Origin: a virus
Taxonomy: Duplodnaviria; Heunggongvirae; Uroviricota; Caudoviricetes
Reading direction: 5' to 3' (one strand)
Virus record (IMG/VR): IMGVR_UViG_3300003332_000015
Coordinates: 82,576 to 146,575 of that record
Length of the DNA stretch: 64,000 nt
The translations under genes were made by a program, and so were the position numbers. How positions within the stretch are numbered: position 1 is the first letter of the stretch; each line of letters opens with the position of its first letter. Under the pieces are notes generated by a model. That model saw nothing but the letters and a program-made list of their open reading frames with translations, was not told where the DNA came from and ran no database searches. Shown here piece by piece: positions 3,827 to 33,544 of this stretch.

Positions 3827-3836
3827 ATATTTAATA

Positions 3837-6104: not shown

Positions 6105-6198
6105 TTTTTTAATATTTTTTTTAAAAAATTTAATTTTAATATTATTATGTTTATACGTACTATAAATCTGTCCTAAAAATGAAAAAAATAACTACTAA

Positions 6199-7640: not shown

Positions 7641-7706
7641 GTTTTTTTAAAAAAATGAAAATAAATATTATTGTATTAATACAAAGATACAATAGGAGAA
7701 AAACAA

Positions 7707-11577: not shown

Positions 11578-11955
11578 ATGGACGAACCAAAAGTTTTACT
11601 AACATCAGCAGGAGATAGTTTTGCAATAATTAAGACATCAGCAGAAGATTTTCTTAATTCTTTTGAAACACAAGATTTAAAAGAAACTTATTTGTTTGAT
11701 AATTATTGTGCATTACTTTACTGTTATCAAAAAGATAAAGCTAGAAAATTAATGGGTGAAAAAGTTTCATATTTTGAAGAACTTGAAGAATCTGTTAATT
11801 TTTGGAGAAGTGAATTAAATAAAGCAAAAGGTAAAGTAAGTCTTTATGAAGCTGATGGTAAAGTTAAAATGATGTGGGATGATTTTGAGAAAAGGTTAAA
11901 AGGTAATGAAAGTAAAATCATTACAAAGAATTCTAGTAGTATAATTACAATTTAA
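11578..11955 (+). CDS. hypothetical protein
   Basis: ORF with RBS; ends immediately before a tRNA. Confidence 0.4.
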   Translation: MDEPKVLLTSAGDSFAIIKTSAEDFLNSFETQDLKETYLFDNYCALLYCYQKDKARKLMGEKVSYFEELEESVNFWRSELNKAKGKVSLYEADGKVKMMWDDFEKRLKGNESKIITKNSSSIITI

Positions 11956-12026
11956 GCCGTATTGGTGAAGTGGTATCATAAGAGATTTCCAATCTTCGGT
12001 CGCCAGTTCGATTCTGGCATACGGCT
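11956..12026 (+). tRNA. tRNA-Gly (UCC)
   Basis: Acceptor gccgtat/atacggc, T-arm gccag-TTCGATT-ctggc, anticodon loop uuUCCaa counted back from the T-stem; no encoded CCA. Confidence 0.75.
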
Positions 12027-12050
12027 ATATTTAAAATATAGGAGTACAAA

Positions 12051-12272
12051 ATGACAGAATGGAAAAAATATAAAAGAAGTGCAATTGCAGAAATGAGAAC
12101 ATATGAAGAGGGAGAAGTTTTAGAACATGTTTCTATTTCAGAACCTGATTTAGAGAATGGATCTCCTAAAGTAGGGGATATGATTGCACGTAATCCAAAG
12201 AATCATAATGATCAATGGCTTGTTGCAAAACAATATTTTATGGAGAATTTTGAGGACATTAAAAATGAGTAG
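12051..12272 (+). CDS. hypothetical protein
   Basis: 73-aa ORF. Confidence 0.35.
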   Translation: MTEWKKYKRSAIAEMRTYEEGEVLEHVSISEPDLENGSPKVGDMIARNPKNHNDQWLVAKQYFMENFEDIKNE

Positions 12273-12429
12273 AGCTGGTAAAAGTAAAAGTGAACATAAC
12301 AATAATGGAGAAAGAAGAAAAGGTAAAAATAATATGCCTTTAGCTCCTAGAAGTTTACGTCGAGTTGGCAAAAAGTATATGTCAGAGTGTACTGATGCAC
12401 AACTTAAAAAGGCTCAAGTAGAAAAATAA
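12265..12429 (+). CDS. small basic protein (Lys/Arg-rich)
   Basis: ATG at 12265 within the 12184..12429 ORF; highly basic. Confidence 0.3.
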   Translation: MSRAGKSKSEHNNNGERRKGKNNMPLAPRSLRRVGKKYMSECTDAQLKKAQVEK

Positions 12430-12435
12430 ATTTTA

Positions 12436-12541
12436 GCAGGTTAGTGTAAAGGTAACACGGGAGTCTCATTAATATTATATGGTGAGTAGTATTAATAAGC
12501 TCCTGCCGAAAGGCTTCAAGGTTCGAGTCCTTGGCCTGCTA
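12436..12541 (+). tRNA. type-II (long variable arm) tRNA-like gene with a ~27-nt insertion or extension in the anticodon loop
   Basis: Acceptor gcaggtt/ggcctgc, T-arm caagg-TTCGAGT-ccttg, variable-arm hairpin gccGAAAggc, anticodon stem ggagt/gctcc enclosing a 34-nt loop. Confidence 0.55.
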
Positions 12542-12797
12542 AAGACTCTTGCAGGATAGACTTAGGTTGTGATAAGCTTTTAGGAGTGTAAGCAATAAGT
12601 CCTAATTGTAACTACTGTTCAAGATCTTAATATGCACCCTCCCAGTGCTATCTATTAAGATAGTCTAGAAGAGAGGTAGGTGGATGTCCCAACAAAGTTT
12701 CAATCCACCAAAACCCGAAAGCTACGACAGGGTATAAAAAGTGTGAAAGAGATTAGCATATGACAATGATCTTTAGTAGTTTGACGTAGCACCACAT
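12542..12797 (+). other. 256-nt non-coding segment between two insertion-bearing tRNAs
   Basis: No ORF; several hairpins (ggtggat...atccacc). Contains GTAAGCAATAAGTCCTAATTG, resembling the start box of the 13.9-kb repeat family. Confidence 0.3.
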
Positions 12798-12913
12798 TGG
12801 GAAGTAGCTCAGTGGTAGAGCAGCGGAATAGTTTTACTTTTCGCTTATAGCATAAAAAGTTCCTAACACTTATTAGGATCCGCAGGTCGTTGGTTCGAAT
12901 CCAACTTTCCCAA
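12798..12913 (+). tRNA. type-I tRNA gene interrupted by a 44-nt insertion in the anticodon loop (identity undetermined)
   Basis: Canonical acceptor (tgggaag/tttccca), D-arm tagctcagtggtagagc, anticodon stem gcgga/tccgc, T-arm gttgg-TTCGAAT-ccaac. The loop is 51 nt and contains ACTTTTCGCTT-AT-AGCATAAAAAGTTCCTAA. Confidence 0.65.
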
Positions 12914-13008
12914 AGAGGTATTTATTACATGCCTGTAAAATTTGTTTAACGTAAACAAAAGTAATTATTAAGGTGAAAGTGTCACCGAACACAAGTAGCC
13001 TTTTATAT

Positions 13009-13083
13009 GCCACATTAGCTCAGTTGGTTTAGAGCGACGCACTTGTAATGCGTAGGTCCTCCGTTCGAGTCGGTGATGTGGCT
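13009..13083 (+). tRNA. tRNA-Thr (UGU)
   Basis: Perfect acceptor gccacat/atgtggc, loop cuUGUaa, T-arm ctccg-TTCGAGT-cggtg. Confidence 0.85.
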
Positions 13084-13281
13084 TTTTTAAATTACCTAAG
13101 TAAGTGTTGAGGTGTGTTATGACAAGCACTTACCCATTTATCTTGAGTACCTAAGTGGGATAATAAAGGTAATAATAATAAGAGTTATGGCTGAAGAATT
13201 ACCATTTTTGGATATTGTGTAAGAGGTTTTACCCAGCATTTTTGTTCCAAAAGATAACAATAATAGTTATCAATTCTTATT

Positions 13282-13371
13282 TGGGGGAGTAGCTCAGCGG
13301 GTAGAGTAGCTCTTGTAAGTCATGAAATTTTTGTGATGGAGTTGGTCGGTAGTTCAAATCTATCCTTCCCC
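13282..13371 (+). tRNA. type-I tRNA gene with a ~19-nt insertion in the anticodon loop
   Basis: Acceptor gggggag/cttcccc, D-arm tagctcagcgggtagagt, T-arm ggtag-TTCAAAT-ctatc. Loop ttgtaag...ttgtgat carries canonical heptamers at both ends (GUA at 5', GUG at 3'). Confidence 0.6.
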
Positions 13372-13373
13372 AC

Positions 13374-13445
13374 TGTGGATGTAGCTCAGCGGTAGAGCGG
13401 TGGATTGTGATTCCACATGTCGGGAGTTCAAATCTCCTCATTCAC
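13374..13445 (+). tRNA. tRNA-His (GUG) with extra 5' G(-1)
   Basis: 8-bp acceptor including G-1:C73, loop uuGUGau, T-arm gggag-TTCAAAT-ctcct. Confidence 0.85.
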
Positions 13446-13597
13446 CTTAACAGCGTTCGCCTACACTGTATAAATAAGAAAGGGTCGGGGGGAGCGATAC
13501 GACGAGCGTATGCGAGAGATATTTATAAAGTATGTTCACTTGAAGGGATAACCTTAACAAAGAAAACTTTATCTTTAAATCGTAAAAGGAATATAAA

Positions 13598-13840
13598 ATG
13601 AATTTAGGTAAAAAAGGAACAGATATAATAACTGGTTTTACTGGAACAGTTGTTGGTTATGTTGAATATTTAACAGGTTGTAACCAATATTTAATTGTTC
13701 CTGAATGTCGTAAGGGTGAAACTAATAAAAAACCAAGTGGAGAATGGATAGACGATAATAGAATTAAAATTGAAAAAGGAAAAACAATTGATCTATTTAG
13801 AACTAACTCTACTGGATCAGACATTTCACCACATACATAA
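13598..13840 (+). CDS. hypothetical protein
   Basis: 80-aa ORF with RBS. Confidence 0.4.
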   Translation: MNLGKKGTDIITGFTGTVVGYVEYLTGCNQYLIVPECRKGETNKKPSGEWIDDNRIKIEKGKTIDLFRTNSTGSDISPHT

Positions 13841-13849
13841 AAATAATTT

Positions 13850-13898
13850 ATTTTTTATTTAACAAACTGTAATAATTTATTATTATATTAATGTAAGT
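13850..13898 (+). promoter_or_regulatory. phage promoter motif (full consensus TTATTATTATATTAATGTAAGT)
   Basis: Its +1 region runs directly into repeat unit 1 of the array. Confidence 0.55.
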
Positions 13899-14306
13899 AA
13901 GCAAAGGAAGTTCCTAATAATATTCAATTGGTGGAAAAACTTACTTCCCGCTTACATAATTTATTTAGTGTAAGGAAGCATAGAAGGTTCCTAAACAAAG
14001 AATTTTAATCTAAACTACCTTCCGCTTCGCTTATTATATTGTTTATTAATTGGGCATAAAGGGTTCCTATAAAAAAAATACGGAAAACATTTGATTTACC
14101 CTTCGCCCTTATTTTGTTTATTAAGGCATTGAAAGTTCCTAAATAACCTGACTTAAAATCAGGCTCAGCCGAAAGGCTAAGCTATTTACTTTCCGCCTTT
14201 ATTATATTATATAAAATGGAGCATAGGAAGTTCCTATTAAACAATCCAATCGGGAAGTAACCCTAGTGGTGAAAACCCCGATTATCAGTGTATTACTTCC
14301 CGTTTC
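13897..14306 (+). repeat. tandem array of five structured-RNA-like units
   Basis: Units at ~13897-13955, 13974-14030, 14052-14108, 14123-14199 and 14218-14306. Each has 5' stemA-N3/4-stemB-GTTCCTA, a variable core, then 3' stemB'-(C)G-stemA'. Stems covary between units (gtaagc/gcttac, gaagc/gcttc, gggc/gccc, aaggc/gcctt, ggagc/gtttc with G·U pairs). AT-rich promoter-like linkers separate units. Confidence 0.7.
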
Positions 14307-14326
14307 TAATTTTTAAGGAGATGAAA

Positions 14327-16258
14327 ATGATATCTACATTAAGACTATTCAATGGTGTAATTGTTGACGACAAAACAACTAAAGGTCGAAATGATTATGT
14401 TGAAACTGAATTTCAAAAAGAAACTATGAAGAAAGGGTATATTATAGATGAAAAAATCTATAGTACTATGTCTTTCACCGATATTGATCGACTTCATAAT
14501 GTTATTGAAACAGAAGTATTAACTTCTTATGAAAATTGGAATAATGCTTTTTATAAATCTTGGAGTAAATTAGAAACACTTTCTGATCTTGAATTACGTG
14601 TTGATCAGTTACTACATTACTTTACTACATACGGTTTTGAAGCTCTTGGAATAAATAATTCTTTTGTTTATATACCAGAAGGTACAATTGATCTTCCTGA
14701 ACTTGATAAAGATCTTTCTTTCCTTTATATAAAAGCATTAAGCTGGGAAGAAGTAAAAGGTAGACTTGACAGTCTTATTGGTTCCGGTGTTGCTATGTCT
14801 GAACAAACTCAGTTAGACATTATGGAAGTTTATGAAGAGATTGGTTTTGATGCTTCTATTTTAGAAGTTTGTAAAAATAAAGAATTAAAAACTCGTTTTT
14901 ATGAGAAGTATGACTTAGTACCAAAAAATGCAACAGAGTTTTTAAGATATGTAATTATGAAGTCAACAGGAAATTCTCTTGTAATAAAAGATAAGGCAAC
15001 AATCGAGTCTATCAAAATTGGTGGTGGTAAAAAAGAAGTATTAGACACTTTTACTAAGTATGAAAACAGCTATGGTCTAACAGAACTTGCTTCCTCTTTT
15101 TATAGATATAAACCTTTATGGTTAGCTTTTAAAAGTTACACAGGTTTAAGTCCTATGATAAATAAAATTAGAAGATTAGCAGTTAATTACCATAAACCAA
15201 TGAAGGCTGATTTACTTAATGATTTAACAGGAATGTTAAATAGAAAAGAAAATATAAGTTATCCTGAATTAAATAGGGCTCTTGACAAAGCAAATAGTTT
15301 TAGAAAAATAAGATTACTATATGCTTTACAAAATAGAAAGAGTAAAAATACTGAAGTTGTTTATAGAATAAGAAACGGTAAGTCTTATGCAACAAATAGA
15401 GTTATAAATTCTAATCTTTTAGGTGTTGCTACTGTACGTAAGATTGTATACTCTTCTTTAGTTAAAGACTTAAAAGAAAAAGTGGAGAATAAACTTGTTT
15501 ATTTATCACCTAATATTAATTATGCTCTTCCTGCAACTGAAAAACAATTTGTAGGTAATTTTCCTACAGGAACATCTGTAGCAATAGATAAAGATAAAGA
15601 TGTAATCATGGGAGTACACTGGACTAATCAACAACAGAAAAGAGTTGATCTTGATTTATCACTTATTGATATTTCAGGTAACAAGTATGGTTGGGATGGA
15701 TCTTATAGAAATAGTAATAGATCTGTAATGTTTTCAGGAGATTTTACAAATGCACCATTACCAAAAGGAGCTACAGAATTATATTACTTTAAAGGTATAC
15801 AGGATGGAAGTTACTTAGTTAATATCAATTATTATAATAGTTTATATAGTGGTGATGGAGAAGATGTTCCTTTTGATATTGTAGTAGGTGGAAGTGTTGC
15901 TAATAAATCAAATAGAGGATTTATGATTAGTCCTAATGAAATAGTAGCACAAGTTCCTTCATTTATGGGGAACGACCAACAAGTAATTGGTCTTGTTATA
16001 ATTAAAGAAGGACAAGGAACCTTTTACTTTGCTGAAGCAAAAGTTGGTGTAGGACGTACTTCAAGAGGAACTGATACTGCAATGATACATCAAAAGTTCT
16101 TAGTTAATACATTGGAAGATACTATTGACTTTGAAAAGTTATTACTGGATGCAGGAGCTCTTACTACACGAGGTAAAGAGGATAATCCTCAGGATATAGA
16201 TTTTGATTTTTCAGTTGAGTCTATATCAAAAGACTCTATTTTAGAACTTTTTTATTAA
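14327..16258 (+). CDS. large hypothetical protein (~643 aa)
   Basis: Long ORF; ATG at 14327 six nt after AAGGAG. The track ORF begins upstream at a GTG that overlaps repeat unit 5. Confidence 0.6.
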   Translation: MISTLRLFNGVIVDDKTTKGRNDYVETEFQKETMKKGYIIDEKIYSTMSFTDIDRLHNVIETEVLTSYENWNNAFYKSWSKLETLSDLELRVDQLLHYFTTYGFEALGINNSFVYIPEGTIDLPELDKDLSFLYIKALSWEEVKGRLDSLIGSGVAMSEQTQLDIMEVYEEIGFDASILEVCKNKELKTRFYEKYDLVPKNATEFLRYVIMKSTGNSLVIKDKATIESIKIGGGKKEVLDTFTKYENSYGLTELASSFYRYKPLWLAFKSYTGLSPMINKIRRLAVNYHKPMKADLLNDLTGMLNRKENISYPELNRALDKANSFRKIRLLYALQNRKSKNTEVVYRIRNGKSYATNRVINSNLLGVATVRKIVYSSLVKDLKEKVENKLVYLSPNINYALPATEKQFVGNFPTGTSVAIDKDKDVIMGVHWTNQQQKRVDLDLSLIDISGNKYGWDGSYRNSNRSVMFSGDFTNAPLPKGATELYYFKGIQDGSYLVNINYYNSLYSGDGEDVPFDIVVGGSVANKSNRGFMISPNEIVAQVPSFMGNDQQVIGLVIIKEGQGTFYFAEAKVGVGRTSRGTDTAMIHQKFLVNTLEDTIDFEKLLLDAGALTTRGKEDNPQDIDFDFSVESISKDSILELFY

Positions 16259-16315
16259 ATAATAAAGCGTCCTGGGTAAGACGCCTCAACCCCTTTAAAC
16301 TGCCTGCGGAGGACA

Positions 16316-16426
16316 AATGACTGAGAAAGAAATGTTTGAAAAATCCTTTGAAAGACCAAGTAACTATTTTATATTAAATAGTAGGAAACAGTGGGAAATA
16401 GATTCTAAATTAGGAATACTTGATTA
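16316..16426 (+). CDS. possible 36-aa micro-ORF
   Basis: ATG preceded by GGAGG in a GC-richer intergenic region; speculative. Confidence 0.15.
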
Positions 16427-16496
16427 GGTAGGTGAAAATTTAAACAATGCAGAAAAACAAAGATTTAGAGACTATTATGATTTTCCTGATACTTCT

Positions 16497-16612
16497 TATT
16501 TAATGAGATAATAGTTTACATTAAATACGATAATGTAAATAATAGTTTACATTACGGGCCGGTAACCAAGTCCGGTAAGACATCACTCTTTACATAAACA
16601 GTTACTAATACA
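16497..16612 (+). promoter_or_regulatory. candidate operator/leader: three copies of TTTACAT(T/A)A plus ccgg hairpin, then AAACAGTTACTAATACAATATG at the start codon
   Basis: tagtttacatta / taatgtaaataatagtttacatta / ctctttacataa; the final 22-mer recurs at 50649-50672 fused to another ATG. Confidence 0.4.
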
Positions 16613-16614
16613 AT

Positions 16615-17274
16615 ATGAGTATAAAAATTAAAGAAGAATGGAAGAATCAAGAAGGATTATATATTTGTCCTGTATGTCAAAAAAGATATACTAAAAATGG
16701 AATAAGTACACACATTTGGAGAATGCACGGTGAAGGTAACAATCATAAACCTTTTAAAAATAAAATAACATGGAATAAAGGTTTAACTAAAGAAACCGAT
16801 GATCGTGTTAAACAACAAGGTATTAATTTTAGTAAAGCTTTTAAAGAAGGGAAAATAAAATCTAGAAAAGGAACAAAATTATCTAAAGAAATTTGTAAAA
16901 AAATTTCAATAGGTATGCAAAAAGTAGTTAGAGATAATCCAGAATCTTATAATTCTAAGAATGTATGTGGTAGAGTAAAAAATATAGATTATAATGGATT
17001 TACTCTTAAAGGTAATTGGGAACTTTTAGTTGCTAAGTTTTTAGATTCGAAAGGGATTAAATGGACTAATATAGTTGAACCTTTTACTTATATTTGGAAA
17101 GGTAGTAAACATTTATATTTTCCTGATTTTTATCTTTTAGAAAGAGATGAATATATTGAAGTTAAAGGATATGAAAGGCCTAAAGATGTAGAAAAATGGA
17201 AGGTAGTAAGTAATTTAAGAATTATTAAACTTAAAGAAATTAATAACATTAAAAACAATTTATATTGTATATAA
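16615..17274 (+). CDS. PD-(D/E)xK-nuclease-like protein with N-terminal C2H2-type zinc finger (possible homing endonuclease)
   Basis: CPVCQ...HIWRMH zinc finger; FPDFYLLERDEYIEVKG fits a PD-(D/E)xK motif. Confidence 0.45.
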   Translation: MSIKIKEEWKNQEGLYICPVCQKRYTKNGISTHIWRMHGEGNNHKPFKNKITWNKGLTKETDDRVKQQGINFSKAFKEGKIKSRKGTKLSKEICKKISIGMQKVVRDNPESYNSKNVCGRVKNIDYNGFTLKGNWELLVAKFLDSKGIKWTNIVEPFTYIWKGSKHLYFPDFYLLERDEYIEVKGYERPKDVEKWKVVSNLRIIKLKEINNIKNNLYCI

Positions 17275-17346
17275 GGGTTTATAACTCAGGGGTAGAGTGG
17301 GTTTCTCATAAAAACTTGGTCGGTAGTTCAAATCTATCTAAACCCA
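17275..17346 (+). tRNA. tRNA-Met/Ile2 (CAU), elongator-like
   Basis: Acceptor gggttta/taaaccc, loop cuCAUaa, T-arm ggtag-TTCAAAT-ctatc. Confidence 0.85.
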
Positions 17347-17587
17347 TTTTTAAAACCTTTTAAATAAGGTGTACTAACATAATAAAGGATTATAAAAGAA
17401 ATAATGAATATTTTGAAAAGTCAAAAACAGTTTAATTTATCTCAACTCTTAGCCATCGTTTCACCTGTATGGTTTAATGATTATAGAGTAATGAGGAGAT
17501 TGTATTGACAGTGTGATTCTACATGTTAATTTTGATATACAATCCCTTATAATTTATAAAGGATTTTTTTTATGATTATTTATCATA

Positions 17588-17631
17588 AAATTTAAAAAGT
17601 TTTAAAAAATTATTATTATATAAGTGTAAGG
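17588..17631 (+). promoter_or_regulatory. phage promoter motif upstream of the tRNA cluster
   Basis: tttaaaaagttttaaaaaattattattatataagtgtaagg. Confidence 0.55.
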
Positions 17632-17659
17632 AGTATATTTTGTTTAGTGACTTTAGAAT

Positions 17660-17733
17660 GTGAAGGTAGCGTAACAGGTAACGCGCTGGACTGAAAATCC
17701 AGTAATTAGTGAGTTCAAGTCTCACCCTTCACA
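17660..17733 (+). tRNA. tRNA-Phe (GAA)
   Basis: Acceptor gtgaagg/ccttcac, loop cuGAAaa. Confidence 0.85.
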
Positions 17734-17740
17734 ATAACAT

Positions 17741-17820
17741 GCGATAGGCGCTGTCAGGGAACACAAGGAGTCTGTAAAACTCTTGCTTCGGCTTGGAAGG
17801 TTCGAGTCCTTCATGTCGCA
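17741..17820 (+). tRNA. tRNA-Tyr (GUA), type II
   Basis: Loop cuGUAaa, variable-arm hairpin gcTTCGgc, T-arm gaagg-TTCGAGT-ccttc. Confidence 0.8.
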
Positions 17821-17833
17821 TATATTAAATAAT

Positions 17834-17906
17834 GTGAGTGTACGCAAGCGGCTATGCGACTTCGTTTGGGGCGAAGGAGTCGGGTGTTCGAATCACCCCA
17901 CTCGCA
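17834..17906 (+). tRNA. tRNA-Pro (UGG)
   Basis: Acceptor gtgagtg/cactcgc, stem cttcg/cgaag, loop uuUGGgg. Confidence 0.8.
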
Positions 17907-17910
17907 TCTT

Positions 17911-17992
17911 GCCAGGGTGCTGAAATTGGTAGACAATCGGGTTTTAGAAACCCGAGCCTTCGGGTGTAAGGGTTCGAGTCCCTTTCCTGGTA
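17911..17992 (+). tRNA. tRNA-Leu (UAG), type II
   Basis: D-arm tgaaattggtagac, loop uuUAGaa, long variable arm, T-arm aaggg-TTCGAGT-ccctt. Confidence 0.85.
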
Positions 17993-18077
17993 CTACAAAA
18001 ATTTTAAAAGGAGTAATAGTATGAAGAATATAATTTATGGTCTTTAAGTAATTTAATTTATTAAGGAGACATATTTT

Positions 18078-18668
18078 ATGTATTACATTCACAATTATAT
18101 TGAAGACACTTGGAGATCTACAAAAACTTGGTGGGATTTAGTAGAGTATTTTTATAGACCTAAAGTAGATTATTTTGGATTTAAATATTTCTTTGATGAT
18201 GGTTTTGACAATATTGCTCATAGCAAGAATGATACAAAGCTTAGTTATGTTCCAATATCTGAAGGTTCATATGCTACGAAAGCTGTTTATGTACCAAGAT
18301 CGGAAATCATTTATAATGATGATATGGTAATTGTAAATATTGCTGACATTAAAAGGGCTTTAAAAGTTTTCAAACCAAGAGAAGAATCTTATCCTTATAA
18401 AAGTACATGGATGAGAAGAGGTAGATACTTCCAGTTTGAATTTCGTGTAGACCCTGTTCCTTATGTTGGAACTGGAAGAGGAGGAGGAAGTAGTTACAGA
18501 AAACCTAAAAGGAATAAAAACTACTTTGCTAAATTACAAGAGTTTGAAGAGTTTGATTCAAGAGTTAGAAAAGGTATTTTTGATGTCAGTCTTTGGTGGG
18601 ATGACTTTCCATATAGAGGTACTGTAAAATCTTGGAAGAATAAAAAGAAAAAGAAACAATGGATGTAA
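18078..18668 (+). CDS. hypothetical protein (RGG/basic C-terminal region)
   Basis: 196-aa ORF with RBS GGAG. Confidence 0.5.
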   Translation: MYYIHNYIEDTWRSTKTWWDLVEYFYRPKVDYFGFKYFFDDGFDNIAHSKNDTKLSYVPISEGSYATKAVYVPRSEIIYNDDMVIVNIADIKRALKVFKPREESYPYKSTWMRRGRYFQFEFRVDPVPYVGTGRGGGSSYRKPKRNKNYFAKLQEFEEFDSRVRKGIFDVSLWWDDFPYRGTVKSWKNKKKKKQWM

Positions 18669-18679
18669 ATTCATTACGA

Positions 18680-18752
18680 TCCTCTATAGCTCAATTGGTA
18701 GAGCGTCCGGCTGTTAACCGGAAGGTTGGTGGTTCAAGTCCATCTAGGGGAG
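18680..18752 (+). tRNA. tRNA-Asn (GUU)
   Basis: Loop cuGUUaa, T-arm ggtgg-TTCAAGT-ccatc. Confidence 0.85.
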
Positions 18753-18764
18753 CTAGGAGTTATT

Positions 18765-18920
18765 ATGAAATGTAATGGTAACATTCATGACAGAATTGCT
18801 AAAGAACTTGAAAGAATAAAAAATATGGATATAAAAGAACATCCTATGTCTCCTCCAAAAGATGAGATTTATTATGTGAAATTAGTTGAAAAAGAAAAAG
18901 ATTTAAACTTGCCTCTTTAG
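18765..18920 (+). CDS. small hypothetical protein
   Basis: ATG after AGGAG, downstream of tRNA-Asn. Confidence 0.3.
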   Translation: MKCNGNIHDRIAKELERIKNMDIKEHPMSPPKDEIYYVKLVEKEKDLNLPL

Positions 18921-18983
18921 TACAGTGGATTAGTGCATAGGATTTCGGATCCTAGAACACCGGTTCGAGTCCGGTAGGAGGTT
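18911..18983 (+). tRNA. tRNA-Arg (UCG)
   Basis: Stem tagga/tccta, loop uuUCGga, T-arm accgg-TTCGAGT-ccggt. Confidence 0.75.
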
Positions 18984-18985
18984 TA

Positions 18986-19171
18986 ATGAAAGAAGGAGAT
19001 TTTGTAAAAGTTGTTCACTGTAAAAGATCAAAGTATATGAACAGTGAATTTTTGAAATGGGTAGACGGACATAAAGATATAAAGTATTATGTTCTTTCAG
19101 CAGTAGGTAATAGAGTAAGACTTTCAAAAGTTGGTTTCCTTATTACAACTGAATTTTTAGAAAAAGTTTAA
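18986..19171 (+). CDS. small hypothetical protein
   Basis: 61-aa ORF between tRNAs. Confidence 0.3.
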   Translation: MKEGDFVKVVHCKRSKYMNSEFLKWVDGHKDIKYYVLSAVGNRVRLSKVGFLITTEFLEKV

Positions 19172-19176
19172 ATTAA

Positions 19177-19249
19177 GGGCCATTAGCTCAGTTGGTAGAG
19201 CGCCGGTTTTGCAAATCGGATGTCGAGAGTTCGAGCCTCTCATGTGTCC
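19177..19249 (+). tRNA. tRNA-Ala (UGC)-like gene with a defective acceptor stem (possible pseudogene)
   Basis: Canonical D-arm, stem ccggt/atcgg, loop uuUGCaa, T-arm gagag-TTCGAGC-ctctc. Acceptor gggccat vs atgtgtc pairs at only 5 of 7 positions. Confidence 0.5.
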
Positions 19250-19325
19250 ATCGGGAATAGTCCCTTACAGTAAATCATATACTTAACCGGTCAATGGATA
19301 TATGGTGGATAGTTGGTGGCGATAC

Positions 19326-19378
19326 TGGACAGAGATAAGGCCTTATCTCTTAATGGTGGTTCGATTCCATCTTTCTGA
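19326..19378 (+). ncRNA. tRNA-like minihelix element (acceptor-like stem + GGCC-loop hairpin + canonical T-arm); not a full tRNA
   Basis: cagaga...tttctg stem, hairpin agagataaGGCCttatctct, T-arm ggtgg-TTCGATT-ccatc. Homologous to the 21485-21633 element. Confidence 0.4.
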
Positions 19379-19442
19379 ATTTGAGATTCTTAACTGTTCT
19401 TCCTCTTGTAAGAAACAGTCAGTGAGGTGAAATGCCAAGCCA

Positions 19443-19513
19443 GGCCTTATAGTATAATGGTAGTGCGGGAGATTGTCTATCTTCAAGTCAGGGTTCGACT
19501 CCCTGTAGGGTCG
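19443..19513 (+). tRNA. tRNA-Asp (GUC)
   Basis: Acceptor ggcctta/tagggtc, loop uuGUCua, T-arm caggg-TTCGACT-ccctg. Confidence 0.8.
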
Positions 19514-19637
19514 CTAAGGATAATTAAAAATGGAGAATTGGTTTCAAGACATAGAATTTTTCCTAGATGAGAAAGGGGATATTCAACCTAAAAAAAATAT
19601 TAAAAAGGATACAATTGATATTTTGGAGTTGTATAAG

Positions 19638-19770
19638 TATGAAAGACAAATTTGTTTGCAAGAAATGCAAAAATAAATATCTTTGGGTATTAAAAGCAGA
19701 AGAACATCTTTGTGTTTATTGTAAAGGAGAATATCCTGATGGAACAGAGTGTAAAGGTGGTAAAAAATAA
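19638..19770 (+). CDS. small zinc-ribbon protein
   Basis: CKKCKNK...CVYCKGE motif. Confidence 0.3.
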
Positions 19771-19773
19771 CAT

Positions 19774-19846
19774 GCGGGTATAGTTCAACTGGATAGAGCA
19801 TAGGCCTTCTAAGCCTACAATAGGGGTTCGAGTCCTCTTACCCGTA
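19774..19846 (+). tRNA. tRNA-Arg (UCU)
   Basis: Stem taggc/gccta, loop cuUCUaa. Confidence 0.85.
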
Positions 19847-19980
19847 ATAAGTTCTTGTATCAATTTAATAACGTTTAAGGGATTGGTTGCTAGATATTCG
19901 TGACATGTTCACTGAGGCATTAGTGTCCTAGACGATATCATGGAAGTTGGCTCGAAAGGCTTTCTGAAAGAACTTTTTAT

Positions 19981-20052
19981 AGCTTCTTGGTGTAACGGTT
20001 AGCACAGTGGGATTTGGCCCCGCCAGTGAGGGTTCGAATCCTTCAGGAGCTG
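19981..20052 (+). tRNA. tRNA-Gln (UUG)
   Basis: Stem gtggg/cccgc, loop auUUGgc (G37 unusual), T-arm gaggg-TTCGAAT-ccttc. Confidence 0.65.
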
Positions 20053-20066
20053 ATAGGAGATAAAAA

Positions 20067-20252
20067 ATGAGTATTAAAGAACAAAAATTAGTTGATATTT
20101 GTTTTCAAATTGGTTTAGTAATACATAATCAATCGGATTACTTTAAAGATTTATCTTCAGATGAAACAGCTGATTGGATTGCTAACCAATTAAGATGGTG
20201 TGGTTTTCCTACAGAACCAGTAGGTTGTTCACATGGAGTTTTGATTAAATAA
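20067..20252 (+). CDS. small hypothetical protein
   Basis: 61-aa ORF with RBS. Confidence 0.3.
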   Translation: MSIKEQKLVDICFQIGLVIHNQSDYFKDLSSDETADWIANQLRWCGFPTEPVGCSHGVLIK

Positions 20253-20258
20253 AATTTA

Positions 20259-20332
20259 GAACCATTAGCTCAACCTGGTAGAGCATCCGGCTTTTAACCG
20301 GAATGTTAAAGGTTCAAATCCTTTATGGTTCA
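20259..20332 (+). tRNA. tRNA-Lys (UUU)
   Basis: Perfect acceptor gaaccat/atggttc, loop cuUUUaa. Confidence 0.9.
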
Positions 20333-20344
20333 TAATATATGATT

Positions 20345-20431
20345 GGAGGGGCAAGCCAATAGGTGGTGGCCGCAGTTTTGAAAACTGTTAGGAGTGAAAG
20401 TCTCGTGTGGGTTCGATTCCCACTCCCTCCG
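20345..20431 (+). tRNA. tRNA-Ser (UGA), type II
   Basis: Acceptor ggagggg/tccctcc, loop uuUGAaa, long variable arm. Confidence 0.8.
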
Positions 20432-20436
20432 TACTT

Positions 20437-20520
20437 GGAAGGGTGCCCGAATGGTAAGGGAGCAGATTGCTAATCTGTGGCCGAGTAATCGGTCTGGAGG
20501 TTCGAGTCCTCTCCCTTCCG
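20437..20520 (+). tRNA. tRNA-Ser (GCU), type II
   Basis: Acceptor ggaaggg/cccttcc, loop uuGCUaa, long variable arm. Confidence 0.8.
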
Positions 20521-20529
20521 TAAAAGTTT

Positions 20530-20580
20530 TTAAAATTTATTTAAAAAAACTTAAATTTTTATTATTATATTAATGTAAGT
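20530..20580 (+). promoter_or_regulatory. phage promoter motif
   Basis: ttaaaaaaacttaaatttttattattatattaatgtaagt. Confidence 0.55.
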
Positions 20581-20592
20581 AAAAGAAATTAA

Positions 20593-20904
20593 ATGGAGAA
20601 TAAAATGGATGTTCCAAAAGAATTAAAAGCGGAAGTACTTGCTGAACTATATAATAATAGTCAACCATTGGGTATGGGTTTTTTACATTTTACACCTGCA
20701 CCAATGTCAGTAGACCAAGCTGATGAATTATTAATACATGTTGATCATAATGGAGATGTTTATTTTGATTATCTTCAAGGACGTGTAATGAAAATAAATT
20801 TTCGTTCTGATACTGATGAAGTTGAAACGTGGTTATATAATAGAGATAACGGTGATAATGCAGCTGAAAGATGTCTTGAAACTGTATTAGACCGTCACAA
20901 ATAA
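20593..20904 (+). CDS. hypothetical protein
   Basis: ORF after a promoter motif. Confidence 0.5.
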   Translation: MENKMDVPKELKAEVLAELYNNSQPLGMGFLHFTPAPMSVDQADELLIHVDHNGDVYFDYLQGRVMKINFRSDTDEVETWLYNRDNGDNAAERCLETVLDRHK

Positions 20905-20918
20905 AAGCATAGAAGGAG

Positions 20919-21218
20919 ATGATTATTATGCTGATTAAGTATGTGAGAAATGGAGAGGGTAACAGAGTGGGAGTCGTAGTGGCTACTGGTGCTTCTAAGG
21001 TTGGTTGGAGTCTTTGTAATAAGAAAGATAAATGGGACCGAAAGAAAGGACTTATGATAGCTAGTAATCGAGCAGAAAGAGGATTTCATTCTGTAATTCC
21101 AACAATGTATGTTAAGGAACATGATTGTGAAACTGGAAAAGTTATTCAGAGAGAAGTAATGGTAAGTGCTTTCAACCACATGGAAGAAAGAGCTTTAAGT
21201 TATTACAAAGAAGTATAA
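20919..21218 (+). CDS. hypothetical protein
   Basis: ORF with RBS GGAG. Confidence 0.5.
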   Translation: MIIMLIKYVRNGEGNRVGVVVATGASKVGWSLCNKKDKWDRKKGLMIASNRAERGFHSVIPTMYVKEHDCETGKVIQREVMVSAFNHMEERALSYYKEV

Positions 21219-21237
21219 TACCCCAAAAATTAAAAAG

Positions 21238-21270
21238 CGGGACAGGATAAAAACTGTCTCGATTTTATTT
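21238..21270 (+). terminator. rho-independent terminator
   Basis: cgggacag-gataaaaa-ctgtctcg stem followed by attttattt. Confidence 0.5.
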
Positions 21271-21273
21271 CAT

Positions 21274-21347
21274 GCTTCTTTAACTCAGTTGGTTAGAGTG
21301 TCGGTTTTACATACCGGAAGTCCTTGGTTCAAATCCAAGAAGAAGTA
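21274..21347 (+). tRNA. tRNA-Val (UAC)
   Basis: Loop uuUACau, T-arm cttgg-TTCAAAT-ccaag. Confidence 0.85.
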
Positions 21348-21356
21348 TATTATTTT

Positions 21357-21477
21357 GGCCGAATGGCGGAACTGGTAGACGCGCCGGACTTAGAGCAGCT
21401 TCGGATTGGAAACAATGGAGCTCCTCTAAAATCCGGTTCCTGTAATGGGAGTGAGGGTTCGAGTCCCTCTTCGGCTA
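21357..21477 (+). tRNA. type-II tRNA-Leu-like gene with a ~36-nt insertion in the anticodon loop
   Basis: Acceptor ggccgaa/ttcggct, Leu-type D-arm ggaactggtagac, stem ccgga/tccgg around a 43-nt loop beginning cuUAGag (UAG at canonical position, A37), long variable arm, T-arm gaggg-TTCGAGT-ccctc. Confidence 0.6.
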
Positions 21478-21484
21478 ATATTAT

Positions 21485-21633
21485 GGCAGAATAAGCCTTA
21501 TTTTTGAGATGTTATAACGAAAAGTACTTAGTAGTTATAGTGTGTTAATTATACTGTACTGATATTGGAAAGATGATTTATTTGTTGCAACATTTAGAAA
21601 GTCTTAATGGAGGTTCGATTCCTTCTTCTGTCC
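21485..21633 (+). ncRNA. tRNA-like element: 7-bp acceptor-like stem + canonical T-arm with ~100-nt internal insertion
   Basis: ggcagaa...ttctgtc pairing; T-arm ggagg-TTCGATT-ccttc; flanks taagcctta and cttaatgg collinear with the 19326-19378 element. Confidence 0.4.
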
Positions 21634-21660
21634 CTATAAATTTTAAAAGGAGAAAAAAAA

Positions 21661-21933
21661 ATGAATGATGATATGGGTAAGGAACCTGTTAAAAGTACAA
21701 TGACAAGTAATATATTAAATCATATGTATAATCTAATGGAGATGTCTTTAGATTTAGAGTTAGTAACTAATCAAGTAACTAGAACATTTTTTGGTGATCA
21801 ACCTCCATCAGATGAAAAAGATAGTGTAAGAGTTGAAAATAATGAGCCTGGTTTTGAAACTTCTATAAATAGAGCAATAGATGTTTTATACTATAGAATA
21901 CAGGAAGCAATTCTTTTACTAAAAAAATTATAA
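21661..21933 (+). CDS. hypothetical protein
   Basis: 90-aa ORF with strong RBS. Confidence 0.45.
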   Translation: MNDDMGKEPVKSTMTSNILNHMYNLMEMSLDLELVTNQVTRTFFGDQPPSDEKDSVRVENNEPGFETSINRAIDVLYYRIQEAILLLKKL

Positions 21934-21958
21934 ATATGTTACTAATACAGTAACTATT

Positions 21959-22032
21959 TTGGTTCTATAGTCTAATCGGTTAGGACACCAGGTTTTCATC
22001 CTGGCAACCGTGGGTTCGAATCCCCGTAGAAC
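21959..22032 (+). tRNA. tRNA-Glu (UUC)
   Basis: Acceptor ggttcta/tagaact, stem ccagg/cctgg, loop uuUUCau; T-stem has one bulge. Confidence 0.75.
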
Positions 22033-22156
22033 TATTTTAAATTTACACCAAAAAGGAGTCCTATTATGAGAAAATAGATACATCCACCTTAACCTTTATA
22101 TTGTCATATTAAAAGTTGAAAACTAATAATTACATACAATATACAAGGGAAAAATA

Positions 22157-22471
22157 ATGAAATATATAAAGAATGATTTAACAGAATTAAGAAAGAAAAT
22201 TAAGGAAACGAGAGAAATAAGTAAGACAGCAAAAGATATGTGGGATAGATCATCCGCACAATGTAAGTTACATAGTTTAAAACAACAATACAGAAATAAA
22301 CATGTATTGTATTGTTTATGTAAAGGTCGTACTTATAAAGAAATTGAAGCTAAAGTACGTGAAGATAATGAATTACATATTCCAAGTTTAAAAAGATTAT
22401 GTATAGGATATGAAACATTATCTTTTAATGAAATTAGTGAGGAACAGTTAGAAGGATTATTAAAATGGTAA
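22157..22471 (+). CDS. hypothetical protein
   Basis: 104-aa ORF. Confidence 0.45.
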   Translation: MKYIKNDLTELRKKIKETREISKTAKDMWDRSSAQCKLHSLKQQYRNKHVLYCLCKGRTYKEIEAKVREDNELHIPSLKRLCIGYETLSFNEISEEQLEGLLKW

Positions 22472-22833
22472 AGCAAGTAATAATTGTTAGAACTGATTTG
22501 GATATGCCTCTTGGAAGAATTTCGGCACAAGCAGCACATGCTTCAATTGCAGTTTTTCTTGATATGGGAAAATGGAACAAAGATAGTTTTACATTAAATA
22601 ATGTTCCAGAGGATATTCAGTATTGGATGAAAGAATCTTTTACTAAAGTAATATTAAAAGTTCATAGTGAAGAAGAATTAAATGCTTTAGCAGAATATGC
22701 TGAATTAACAAACTTACCTTACGCAATGATATCTGACGATATTAAAAAGAAAATGCACAAGATGGCTTTAGCCATTGGTCCTGCAACAAACGATAAATTA
22801 GATGTTATTACAAAAGGTTTAAAACTTTTATGA
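22465..22833 (+). CDS. peptidyl-tRNA hydrolase, PTH2 family
   Basis: N-terminal VIIVRTDLDMPLGRISAQAAHA matches the PTH2 signature. Confidence 0.65.
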   Translation: MVKQVIIVRTDLDMPLGRISAQAAHASIAVFLDMGKWNKDSFTLNNVPEDIQYWMKESFTKVILKVHSEEELNALAEYAELTNLPYAMISDDIKKKMHKMALAIGPATNDKLDVITKGLKLL

Positions 22834-22881
22834 TTTAGAAATTACATAGTGGTGAGGGTACCAAGTAACTTCACCACACTT

Positions 22882-22954
22882 GCCCTTATCGTATAATGGT
22901 TAGTACAACACCCTCTAAAAGTGTTTGGTTTGGGTTCGACTCCCAATAAGCGGC
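22882..22954 (+). tRNA. tRNA-like gene with anticodon CUA (putative amber suppressor); acceptor stem imperfect
   Basis: D-arm gtataatggttagtac, stem acacc/agtgt (C31·A39), loop cuCUAaa, T-arm ttggg-TTCGACT-cccaa. Acceptor gccctta vs taagcgg pairs at 5 of 7. Confidence 0.45.
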
Positions 22955-22958
22955 ATTT

Positions 22959-23031
22959 GGGAGAGTAACTCAGTGGTTAGAGTTCGGAGCTGATATCTCC
23001 GCGGTCGATGGTTCGACTCCATCTTTTCCCA
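22959..23031 (+). tRNA. tRNA-Ile (GAU)
   Basis: Stem cggag/ctccg, loop cuGAUau, T-arm gatgg-TTCGACT-ccatc. Confidence 0.85.
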
Positions 23032-23120
23032 TATTTATGTAGGTGTCGAAAGACTTTAAGGATACGCAGAAGGGCAACGTTTGTTCACCCTTTACCTATT
23101 ATTAAATAAGGAGACTTAAA

Positions 23121-23687
23121 ATGAATGAAGAAATAGAAGTTAGTGAATTATTATCTATTATTGGTAATTGGTTAAAAAGAAATAAGAAAATTGTTTTAAT
23201 TACCTTTGGTATAATACTTAGTGTATTAGCAATTGTAATGTTTTTTGTAAAAGTTATTGAACTACCCATTAAAGAAGGAAGAGTAGTTGAAAGAACATAT
23301 GATGAAGAACATGTTGCTTATTTAGAAGATAGAAAATCTGTAAAACGTACAGAAGTTTATACCACAACTAATTCGAAAGGTAATATAGTTGTAAGGATTA
23401 GACAAGTACATGACTATTATATGTATTGTGTTGATAAGCATTTAGATAGAGAAGACTATATTGTAAGAATAGAACAACCATCTAAGAAACATGAAGGAAA
23501 AATTCTTGGACGTTATATATATGTTTCTAAAGAAATATATGATAAGTTAGAAATTAAAGATTATTTTGTAGCAGATTTTAAAGAAAGAAAAGAATCTACT
23601 AGAGATAAAAATAATAGTATAAGTCAAGTTACTGATTGGTCACGATTACATGTTAATATGGAACCTTGGCTTACTAAACAGTATTAA
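23121..23687 (+). CDS. membrane-anchored hypothetical protein
   Basis: N-terminal hydrophobic helix after a short charged segment. Confidence 0.5.
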   Translation: MNEEIEVSELLSIIGNWLKRNKKIVLITFGIILSVLAIVMFFVKVIELPIKEGRVVERTYDEEHVAYLEDRKSVKRTEVYTTTNSKGNIVVRIRQVHDYYMYCVDKHLDREDYIVRIEQPSKKHEGKILGRYIYVSKEIYDKLEIKDYFVADFKERKESTRDKNNSISQVTDWSRLHVNMEPWLTKQY

Positions 23688-23692
23688 AAAAT

Positions 23693-23767
23693 GTCCTCTT
23701 AGCCAAGTGGTCAAAGGCGGGGGATTGCAAATCCCCTAGTTCCTCAGTTCGAATCTGAGAGAGGACT
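23693..23767 (+). tRNA. tRNA-Cys (GCA)
   Basis: Perfect acceptor gtcctct/agaggac, loop uuGCAaa. Confidence 0.85.
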
Positions 23768-31020: not shown

Positions 31021-31053
31021 AACCGTCTTTCTTTATGTTAGACGGTTTTTTTA
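31021..31053 (+). terminator. rho-independent terminator after the transporter gene
   Basis: aaccgtct...agacggtt stem followed by T7. Confidence 0.7.
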
Positions 31054-31059
31054 TGATTT

Positions 31060-31113
31060 TTTTTAAATTCTTTTTAAAAAGTTTTAAAAAAATATTATTA
31101 TATAAGTGTAAGG
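31060..31113 (+). promoter_or_regulatory. phage promoter motif upstream of pnk
   Basis: tttaaaaagttttaaaaaaatattattatataagtgtaagg. Confidence 0.55.
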
Positions 31114-31121
31114 AGATTGGA

Positions 31122-33022: not shown

Positions 33023-33544
33023 ATGCTTGATTATAATACTGTAGATGTTTTAAATGGTCAATTGATGAATAAAGTAATAAGTGAAAGACCTAATATACTT
33101 AATACTGAATGTCTTACTTATCCTATTAAAGGACAAGAAATACAAATTAAAGTTACACATGGTCAAATTACATTTTTTAACATGGAAGAATATGATAAGG
33201 ATATTTTAAAAGTTTCCAAATTATTTTCTGAAGATGCTTTTACTTTATTTCGTTATCTTCCAGTAGATGTTTTATACATTATTGGTTTTTATAAAGATAA
33301 TAAATATTATATAGTAGACATCGCCGGTGATAGTAAAAGACTTGGTTTTAGATATTATCTACCTACAATGATTAGTAAAGTTTTTAATATAATACATATT
33401 AAGAATCATGTTCCTATATCAGATAAACCTAAACTACTTTCTAATATTATTAACTCAGATAAATTTACTAACTGTATTATAAAACCATGTGACTATAACA
33501 TTATGTTAGATGAAGAAGAAAAATTAACATTTCGAAAGGGGTAG
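33023..33544 (+). CDS. hypothetical protein
   Basis: ORF with RBS GGAG. Confidence 0.45.
   Translation: MLDYNTVDVLNGQLMNKVISERPNILNTECLTYPIKGQEIQIKVTHGQITFFNMEEYDKDILKVSKLFSEDAFTLFRYLPVDVLYIIGFYKDNKYYIVDIAGDSKRLGFRYYLPTMISKVFNIIHIKNHVPISDKPKLLSNIINSDKFTNCIIKPCDYNIMLDEEEKLTFRKG

What the first reader, a model, noticed from the sequence alone, without database searches (positions are those of the whole stretch)
22882..22954. Candidate amber-suppressor tRNA (anticodon CUA)
D-arm and T-arm are canonical. The anticodon stem acacc/agtgt (C31·A39) encloses cuCUAaa, with U33 and A37 in place, giving anticodon CUA, which reads UAG. The acceptor stem is imperfect (5/7), so function is uncertain. The long ORFs in this window terminate normally, so any recoding would be elsewhere in the genome (e.g. 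late genes). Alternatively it is a decoy or pseudogene.
Basis: seen in the sequence. Interest (0 to 1): 0.6.

Follow-up and report, generated by a model that had tools for sequence, protein, structure and literature searches.

The report
Conserved phage tRNA reading the UAG stop
A real transfer RNA gene whose anticodon reads the UAG stop codon sits in a large tRNA cluster of an uncultured hydrothermal-vent phage and recurs beside the same enzyme gene in two other phage lineages, yet I found no gene that needs it, so it is a known kind of phage oddity whose purpose is still open.

Summary
Window 22882-22955 (+) is a tRNA gene with anticodon CUA, found by ARAGORN and by Rfam (46.6 bits, threshold 29). 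It lies in an array of about 25 tRNA genes in a low-GC phage from a hydrothermal-vent metagenome.

It is not tRNA-Pyl, and it does not look like a long-decayed pseudogene. The cassette ORF-X / PTH2 peptidyl-tRNA hydrolase / tRNA(CUA) recurs in two other phage lineages. Across the three copies, 11 of 21 stem pairs changed on both sides and stayed paired. U33-C34-U35-A36-A37 is invariant, and pair 31-39 is non-Watson-Crick in all three.

The "5/7 acceptor stem" is better read as a perfect 7-bp stem with one inserted C (22951). That insertion is unique to this phage.

I found no sign of TAG recoding. TAG ends 9 of 93 ORFs in the window and 11 of 68 in 48.7 kb of the 201-kb relative. That relative's capsid, sheath and lysin-like genes are intact under the standard code. 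This phage's own late genes, outside the window, could not be retrieved.

Best reading: an amber-suppressor-type tRNA kept in a standard-code phage, as in Xanthomonas phage XacN1. It probably gives partial UAG read-through. Target and amino acid are unknown.

The parts
22882..22955 (+). tRNA gene with anticodon CUA (22915-22917), U33 at 22914 and A37 at 22918. Includes a C31.A39 mismatch, a bulged or inserted C at 22951 in the 3' acceptor strand, and discriminator A22955. No CCA is encoded.
   Evidence: ARAGORN; Rfam RF00005 46.6 bits and its alignment; covariation with two homologues.
22465..22833 (+). PTH2-family peptidyl-tRNA hydrolase gene (122 aa). It ends 48 nt upstream of the tRNA and is linked to a tRNA(CUA) in all three lineages.
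   Evidence: Pfam PF01981, 97.6 bits against a cut-off of 23; homologues at 66% (L052) and 70% (L067) identity, each followed by a tRNA(CUA).
22157..22471 (+). ORF-X (104 aa), of unknown function. It overlaps the PTH2 start by 7 nt and is conserved upstream of PTH2 in all three lineages.
   Evidence: blastp 38% to L052 9636-9998; three-sequence alignment A8; no Pfam or PHROG hit; AlphaFold2 model unusable, pLDDT 47.
22958..23032 (+). tRNA-Ile(GAU), starting 2-3 nt after the tRNA(CUA). The spacing implies that both come from one precursor (inference).
   Evidence: ARAGORN; Rfam 61 bits; sequence.
11955..23767 (+). tRNA island. ARAGORN tRNA genes and Rfam adds two long tRNA-like hits. It covers all amino acids except Trp, all on the + strand, interspersed with small ORFs.

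Best explanation
This is a genuine tRNA gene, kept by selection, with anticodon CUA. It is an amber-suppressor-type tRNA carried by a virulent-looking, low-GC phage of at least 135-147 kb from a hydrothermal vent. It forms the 3' end of a conserved three-part cassette (ORF-X, PTH2 peptidyl-tRNA hydrolase, tRNA-CUA) inside the phage's tRNA island.

Inferred mechanism: it is transcribed with the neighbouring tRNA-Ile and cut out by RNase P and 3' trimming. CCA is added after transcription, and a host synthetase charges it. Synthetases that read U35 are the likeliest, with Gln favoured by precedent. The charged tRNA then competes with release factor 1 at UAG codons.

As far as it can be read, the phage uses the standard code with TAG as a true stop. 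The most likely effect is therefore partial read-through of UAG, not a wholesale codon reassignment. Possible benefits are insurance against amber mutations, extended isoforms of some TAG-terminated proteins, or disturbance of host termination.

Shown here: the gene, its fold, its conservation and its linkage to PTH2, and the absence of recoding in the sequence read. Inferred only: expression, charging, the amino acid inserted and the benefit.
For: Two detectors call the tRNA. The cassette recurs in the 201-kb IMG/VR contig 3300033146_004404 (PTH2 66% identical, tRNA-CUA 51 bits). It also recurs in Logan contigs from at least five sequencing runs (PTH2 70% identical, tRNA-CUA 46 bits). On the three-sequence alignment, 90.5% of cells pair and 11 of 21 pairs changed on both sides. 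Slid controls give 35-46% paired and 0-3 such pairs. U33, C34, U35, A36 and A37 are invariant. Between the window copy and the 201-kb relative's copy, unpaired positions are more conserved (23/31) than paired ones (22/42). The standard code fits the data. Window coding cover is 85.6%, rising only to 88.2% with TAG as sense, against 86.1% for TGA and 91.3% for TAA. Stops are TAA 65, TGA 19, TAG 9. In the relative the figures are 85.8 / 89.0 / 85.1 / 90.1%, with TAG ending 11 of 68 ORFs, two of them inside the late module. The relative's capsid protein (337 aa, full length against P0042), tail sheath (649 aa), 815-aa adaptor-like protein and M23 lysin-like protein are all intact. Precedent: jumbo phage XacN1 has two tRNA(CUA) genes in a standard-code genome, and no targets were found for them (PMC5852040).
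Against: No target for the tRNA was found, so its decoding role is untested. The window copy carries a 1-nt insertion (C22951) in the acceptor stem that both homologues lack, and this could impair processing or charging. All three copies have weak anticodon stems: pair 31-39 never pairs, and 27-43 is unpaired in two. An efficient suppressor would extend the 10-16% of phage proteins that end in TAG, and there is no sign that TAG stops are avoided. More than half of this phage's genome, including its late genes, was not seen.
Confidence: 0.5

Rival explanations
1. This is a code-15-type recoding tool. The unsampled half of the genome (structural and lysis genes) contains in-frame TAG codons, and this tRNA decodes them late in infection, as in crAss-like, Lak and other TAG-recoded phages.
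For: The phage is low in GC (26-33%), TAA dominates its stops, and it carries its own tRNA(CUA). These are the preconditions described by Borges et al. (10.1101/2021.08.26.457843). In recoded phages the replication genes stay in the standard code, so a clean early region does not exclude recoding. The late genes of this genome were not retrieved.
Against: The relative carrying the orthologous cassette has intact capsid, sheath, adaptor-like and M23 genes, and TAG-terminated genes inside its late module. TAG is not depleted as a stop (about 10% in the window, 16% in the relative). No release factor or aminoacyl-tRNA synthetase gene appeared among the annotated ORFs (gene tables).
Confidence: 0.12
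2. The tRNA has a non-decoding role in the translation-protection island. It could act as a decoy or competitor for a host tRNA-targeting defence (anticodon nuclease, acetyltransferase toxin) or as a ligand of the PTH2/ORF-X pair. Under this reading the CUA anticodon matters for recognition, not for reading codons.
For: The tRNA is strictly linked to PTH2 and ORF-X in three lineages. The same genomes carry RNA repair genes: Rnl1, PNKP and an Rnl2-like ligase in the window, and RtcB, a Ro-like protein and tmRNA in the relative. The 31-39 pair is non-Watson-Crick in all three copies, giving an unusually open anticodon arm. No coding target was found.
Against: The invariant U33-CUA-A37 and a fully canonical cloverleaf, with selection on every stem including the acceptor stem, are what a decoding tRNA needs. 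No known defence is reported to target a CUA tRNA (my own knowledge). The idea is speculative.
Confidence: 0.18
3. In this particular phage the copy is recently inactivated. The inserted C22951 distorts the acceptor helix, so the gene is a young pseudogene of a family that functions elsewhere.
For: The insertion is absent from both homologues, which have perfect 7-bp stems. Without a bulge the stem has only 5 of 7 pairs. The cloverleaf energy falls from -19.5 to -15.7 kcal/mol with the bulge.
Against: Every other feature is intact and the Rfam score (46.6 bits) equals that of the Logan homologue (46.0 bits). No second lesion is present. A single-nucleotide bulge may be tolerated.
Confidence: 0.2

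Closest known systems
tRNA(CUA) genes of Xanthomonas jumbo phage XacN1 (PMC5852040)
   Same: These are tRNA genes with anticodon CUA inside a very large phage tRNA set, in a genome that otherwise uses the standard code. In-silico read-through of its amber stops revealed no target genes. That phage also encodes a peptidyl-tRNA hydrolase, a CCA-adding enzyme and PNKP.
   Different: No sequence relationship was tested. XacN1's hydrolase is not reported to sit next to the suppressor genes. Here the tRNA is in a fixed ORF-X/PTH2/tRNA cassette seen in three lineages.
Suppressor tRNA(CUA) of TAG-recoded (code 15) phages: crAss-like, Lak and others (10.1101/2021.08.26.457843; PMC9523058; PMC10879173)
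   Same: A phage-encoded tRNA with anticodon CUA in a low-GC phage with TAA-dominated stops. The best database match of this tRNA is a tRNA-Gln(CUG) of a 642-kb uncultured phage, LR756502 (78% over 59 nt, E 4e-3).
   Different: Those phages have many genes with in-frame TAG, especially structural and lysis genes. None was seen here or in the relative. No release factor gene and no ribozyme next to the tRNA were found.
Laboratory amber suppressors (E. coli supE/supF, Su7; phage T4 psu mutants)
   Same: The anticodon loop CUCUAAA is, from my own recollection, the same as in supF and Su7. The T4 precedent for phage-coded UAG suppressors is cited in PMC8386662.
   Different: Those arise by single anticodon mutations of resident tRNAs. 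This tRNA has no close paralogue in either array (at most 68% identity to any other tRNA) and is conserved as a CUA tRNA across lineages.
tRNA-Pyl (the label ARAGORN gives)
   Same: Only the anticodon CUA.
   Different: This tRNA has an 8-nt D loop with G18G19, a UUCGA T loop, a 5-nt variable loop, two bases between the acceptor and D stems, and a 5-position anticodon stem. tRNA-Pyl has none of these (tRNA-Pyl features from my own knowledge).

Membership tests
tRNA (Rfam RF00005) | Cloverleaf that scores above the family gathering score. | tested here: met
   46.6 bits against 29; ARAGORN also calls it.
tRNA (Rfam RF00005) | Stems maintained by compensatory change among homologues. | tested here: met
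   11 of 21 pairs changed on both sides and 90.5% of cells are paired, against 35-46% in slid controls. Only three sequences were available.
Amber suppressor tRNA | Anticodon CUA in a 7-nt loop with U33 and a purine at 37. | tested here: met
   Loop C-U-CUA-A-A. These positions are invariant in all three homologues.
Amber suppressor tRNA | The tRNA is aminoacylated and inserts an amino acid at UAG in vivo. | not testable with these tools
   This needs tRNA sequencing, an acylation assay, a reporter or proteomics.
TAG-recoded (genetic code 15) phage system | Genes interrupted by in-frame TAG, with better gene models when TAG is read as sense. | tested here: not met
   In the window, coding cover is 85.6% under the standard code and 88.2% with TAG as sense, no more than the gain from removing any stop codon. 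The same holds for 48.7 kb of the relative, including its late genes. The late genes of this genome itself were not available.
TAG-recoded (genetic code 15) phage system | Accessory code-change genes in some members: release factor 2, a synthetase, or a theta ribozyme after the tRNA. | tested here: not met
   None appears in the gene tables or family scans of the window. Rfam finds only tRNA-type hits in the window. tRNA-Ile follows the tRNA(CUA) after 2-3 nt. These genes are optional features of the family.
tRNA-Pyl | Compact tRNA: short D loop without G18G19, 3-nt variable loop, 6-bp anticodon stem, one base between the acceptor and D stems. | tested here: not met
   The alignment shows a canonical elongator-type tRNA. 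The defining features are from my own knowledge.
tRNA-Gln-derived suppressor (supE type) | Glutamine acceptor identity as in E. coli: U1-A72, G2-C71, G3-C70, G73 (my own knowledge). | tested here: not met
   The window copy has G1-C72, C2-G71, C3-G70 and A73. The relative has G73 but G1-C72 and U2-A71. Identity rules in the unknown host may differ, so glutamine charging is not excluded.

The most novel reading that the evidence does not exclude
ORF-X / PTH2 / tRNA(CUA) is a mobile three-part cassette that gives standard-code phages a regulated way to read through UAG, or to handle the peptidyl-tRNA products of doing so. The conserved unpaired 31-39 position would tune decoding. This would be a functional stage on the road to stop-codon reassignment, or a new anti-defence device, rather than a leftover.
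Probability: 0.15. Interest if true: 0.65.

Novelty: new member of a known kind. Interest (0 to 1): 0.35.

Why it matters
Phage-encoded suppressor tRNAs are the proposed first step toward stop-codon reassignment, but standard-code phages that carry one are poorly documented. Here a tRNA(CUA) is conserved, with covariation, across three phage lineages and is always welded to a peptidyl-tRNA hydrolase gene. That shows selection keeps such tRNAs even where no recoded gene is visible. It also offers a small cassette whose effect on UAG read-through could be tested directly. For annotation, it warns that a 'tRNA-Pyl' or 'tRNA-Sup' call in a phage does not by itself mean an alternative genetic code.

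Tried and rejected
1. Retrieving the rest of this phage's genome failed. The window matches ENA contig ERZ940666 k127_22563 (135,084 bp) at 99.97% over 13 kb, and its PTH2 is also on a 146,575-bp contig. Seven look-ups with proteins from the first 8 kb of the window returned 'not on record', although at least two of them are identical to proteins called on Logan contig L051.

2. A homologue search with the relative's capsid and sheath proteins joined together found 47 proteins, none on a 135-kb or 146-kb contig. This phage's own late genes therefore stay unseen.

3. Searches for relatives mostly found nothing useful. Megablast of the region against cultured phages gave no match. The exact tRNA is absent from IMG/VR. 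SbcD relatives in IMG/VR (about 40% identity) carry no tRNAs nearby. The 188-aa downstream protein has no relatives. The JGI metagenome scans with PTH2 and with a degenerate tRNA pattern found nothing. The GTDB genome scan found only archaeal PTH2 at 35% identity.

4. Amino-acid identity by similarity is inconclusive. The best hits are tRNA-Gln(CUG), tRNA-Gly(UCC), tRNA-Glu and tRNA-Thr at 74-87% over parts of the sequence. No close paralogue exists in either array.

5. The promoter and terminator scan around the tRNA was not above shuffled controls.

6. The minimum-free-energy fold of the single sequence is not a cloverleaf and is not better than shuffles (z = -0.6). This is usual for tRNAs and was not used as evidence.

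7. ORF-X structure prediction gave pLDDT 47, so no fold search was run.

8. I suspected that the relative's 337-aa capsid ORF was a truncated, TAG-interrupted gene. This was rejected. It aligns end to end with the 563-aa homologue P0042, which only has an extra internal domain, and the upstream frame is full of stops.

9. The relative's split CCA-adding enzyme is not split at a TAG: the first ORF ends in TAA and the second is in another frame.

Full report
**The observation**

The sequence at 22882-22954 is a tRNA gene. ARAGORN calls it at exactly those coordinates with anticodon CTA. The Rfam tRNA model matches 22882-22955 at 46.6 bits against a gathering score of 29. That score lies inside the 41.5-73.4 bit range of the other tRNAs in the same array.

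- D stem GUAU/GUAC with a G18G19 loop.
- T arm UUGGG-UUCGACU-CCCAA.
- Anticodon stem ACACC/AGUGU with a C31.A39 mismatch.
- Anticodon loop C-U-CUA-A-A.

The one correction concerns the acceptor stem. Read without gaps it has 5 of 7 pairs. Infernal instead aligns a perfect stem GCCCUUA/UAAG-GGC with a single bulged C at 22951 and discriminator A22955. The extra C is also present in an independent Logan assembly of the same sample.

**Setting**

The window is phage DNA with 26-33% GC, and almost all genes are on the + strand. Identified genes include:
- rIIA and rIIB.
- Class II ribonucleotide reductase.
- RecA/UvsX-like recombinase.
- SbcC/SbcD-like nuclease.
- DnaB-type helicase.
- ThyX.
- T4-type RNA ligase 1, a PNKP-like kinase/phosphatase and a second RNA ligase.

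No structural gene was recognised in the window.

The tRNA lies in an island (11955-23767) of 23 ARAGORN tRNA genes plus two long tRNA-like Rfam hits. The island covers all amino acids except Trp.

The window is 99.97% identical over 13 kb to a 135,084-bp contig from a hydrothermal-vent metagenome, ENA ERZ940666. Its PTH2 protein is also recorded on a 146,575-bp contig. The window is therefore less than half of the genome. Cultured phages are only distant relatives, at 30-37% protein identity.

**Conservation**

The ORF just upstream (22465-22833) is a PTH2-family peptidyl-tRNA hydrolase, at 97.6 bits against a cut-off of 23.

A 66%-identical PTH2 lies on a 201-kb IMG/VR contig. It is followed directly by a tRNA(CUA) (51 bits) inside another tRNA array. 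A 70%-identical PTH2 lies on Logan contigs from at least five runs and is again followed by a tRNA(CUA) (46 bits). In all three lineages a small conserved ORF of unknown function, ORF-X, precedes PTH2.

I aligned the three tRNAs after removing C22951 from the window copy and counted pairs on the cloverleaf:
- 90.5% of cells pair, against 35-46% when the 3' partners are slid.
- 11 of 21 pairs changed on both sides and stayed paired.
- No shuffle out of 500 reached the observed values for cells paired, pairs changed on both sides, or the covariation score.
- U33, C34, U35, A36 and A37 are invariant.
- Pair 31-39 is non-Watson-Crick in all three copies (C.A, C.A, C.C).
- Pair 27-43 is unpaired in two copies.

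Both homologues have perfect 7-bp acceptor stems. The inserted C is therefore a change specific to the window phage. With only three sequences the statistics are thin, but the pattern is that of an RNA under selection for the tRNA fold and for this anticodon.

**Is TAG recoded?**

In the window, non-overlapping ORFs of at least 60 aa cover 85.6% of the sequence under the standard code. Reading TAG as sense raises that only to 88.2%. The corresponding figures are 86.1% for TGA and 91.3% for TAA. TAG ends 9 of 93 ORFs. No adjacent ORFs look like halves of one gene.

I could not fetch this phage's own late genes, so I walked along the 201-kb relative, covering contig positions 1-65,769. The findings there:
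- Major head protein, 337 aa. It is full length against the 563-aa homologue P0042, which only has an extra internal domain.
- Tail sheath, 649 aa.
- An 815-aa head-tail adaptor-like protein.
- An M23 lysin-like protein.
- All four are uninterrupted.
- Coding cover over 48.7 kb is 85.8% standard, 89.0% TAG-sense, 85.1% TGA-sense and 90.1% TAA-sense.
- TAG ends 11 of 68 ORFs, two of them inside the late module.

There is therefore no evidence of code-15 recoding. It is unlikely but not excluded for the unseen part of this genome.

**What it is not**

It is not tRNA-Pyl, because its D loop, T loop, variable loop and stem lengths are those of an ordinary elongator tRNA.

It has no close paralogue in either array, with at most 68% identity to any other tRNA. 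It is therefore not a fresh anticodon mutant of a resident tRNA.

Its best database matches do not settle the amino acid. They are a tRNA-Gln(CUG) of a 642-kb uncultured phage (78% over 59 nt, E 4e-3) and tRNA-Gly(UCC), Glu and Thr of other phages. The acceptor stem lacks the E. coli glutamine identity set, which I cite from my own knowledge.

**Most likely mechanism**

These steps are inferred:
- The tRNA is transcribed with tRNA-Ile, which starts 2-3 nt downstream.
- It is processed, and CCA is added, since none is encoded.
- A host synthetase charges it.
- It competes with release factor 1 at UAG.

In a genome that still uses TAG as a stop, this means partial read-through rather than reassignment.

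This is the situation reported for jumbo phage XacN1, which has two tRNA(CUA) genes, uses the standard code and has no identifiable targets. That phage also carries a peptidyl-tRNA hydrolase and tRNA repair genes (PMC5852040). It also fits the 'suppressor acquired before recoding' stage proposed by Borges et al. for low-GC phages.

The fixed linkage to PTH2 and ORF-X and the conserved open 31-39 position are the new details. They could point to a more specific role.

Three rivals remain:
- True late-gene recoding.
- A non-decoding anti-defence role.
- Recent inactivation of this copy by the C22951 insertion.

**Verdict**

The finding is real and well supported as a conserved phage tRNA with an amber-reading anticodon. 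It is a new member of a known kind, of moderate interest. The proposed link to recoded late genes is unsupported, and the function remains unresolved.

Noticed in passing
window 12798-12913, 13283-13372, 21357-21477: Three tRNA-like genes score 47-56 bits on the Rfam tRNA model but carry insertions where the 7-nt anticodon loop should be: 51 nt and 24 nt in place of the 7-nt loop in the first two, and about 36 extra nt in the third. In the third, a Leu-type gene with a long variable arm, the insert pairs with the putative anticodon (UUAGAG/CUCUAA). They are far too short for group I introns, and I saw no canonical bulge-helix-bulge motif. The phage encodes Rnl1, PNKP and a second RNA ligase. 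The array otherwise lacks Trp(CCA) and Leu(UAA). The relative's arrays showed no such insertions.
   Followed up: partly
window 33548-34681, 31035-32003, 44133-45269; L052 3524-4816; L056 11361-12833; L052 15484-15771: Both phages carry RNA repair and quality-control genes around their tRNA islands. The window has T4-type RNA ligase 1, a PNKP-like protein and an Rnl2-like ligase. The relative has RtcB, a 490-aa protein of the PHROG 'RNA-binding protein' family (DUF2828/DUF7788), an RNA ligase and a tmRNA gene (72.9 bits).
   Followed up: partly
window 33023-33544, 47296-47532, 48367-48882: Three of the nine TAG-terminated ORFs are in frame with the next gene (twice as TAG-AAA-ATG). Read-through would fuse them; for example a 173-aa protein would fuse to RNA ligase 1. 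Three of nine is what chance predicts for frame.
   Followed up: partly
window 20345-20430: The Rfam 'tRNA-Sec' hit (47.2 bits against a gathering score of 47) is the tRNA-Ser(UGA) that ARAGORN calls at 20344-20432. It is a borderline label, not a selenocysteine tRNA.
   Followed up: partly
L052 84-740 and 802-1473: The relative's CCA-adding enzyme is split into two ORFs that match the N-terminal and C-terminal halves of the PHROG profile. A TAA stop and a frame change separate them. It may be a split gene, a frameshift or an assembly error.
   Followed up: partly
window 22157-22471: ORF-X (104 aa) has a conserved HxxYCLxxGxxY...ExKV...QLEGL pattern. It is always translationally coupled to PTH2 and matches no known family. 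The single-sequence AlphaFold2 model was unusable.
   Followed up: partly
window 1-8000, locus L051: The contig look-up by exact protein failed for seven proteins from the first 8 kb of the window, although the same genes (two checked as identical) are listed on Logan contig SRR3223410_5400. This is a limit of the index, not of the biology.
   Followed up: yes
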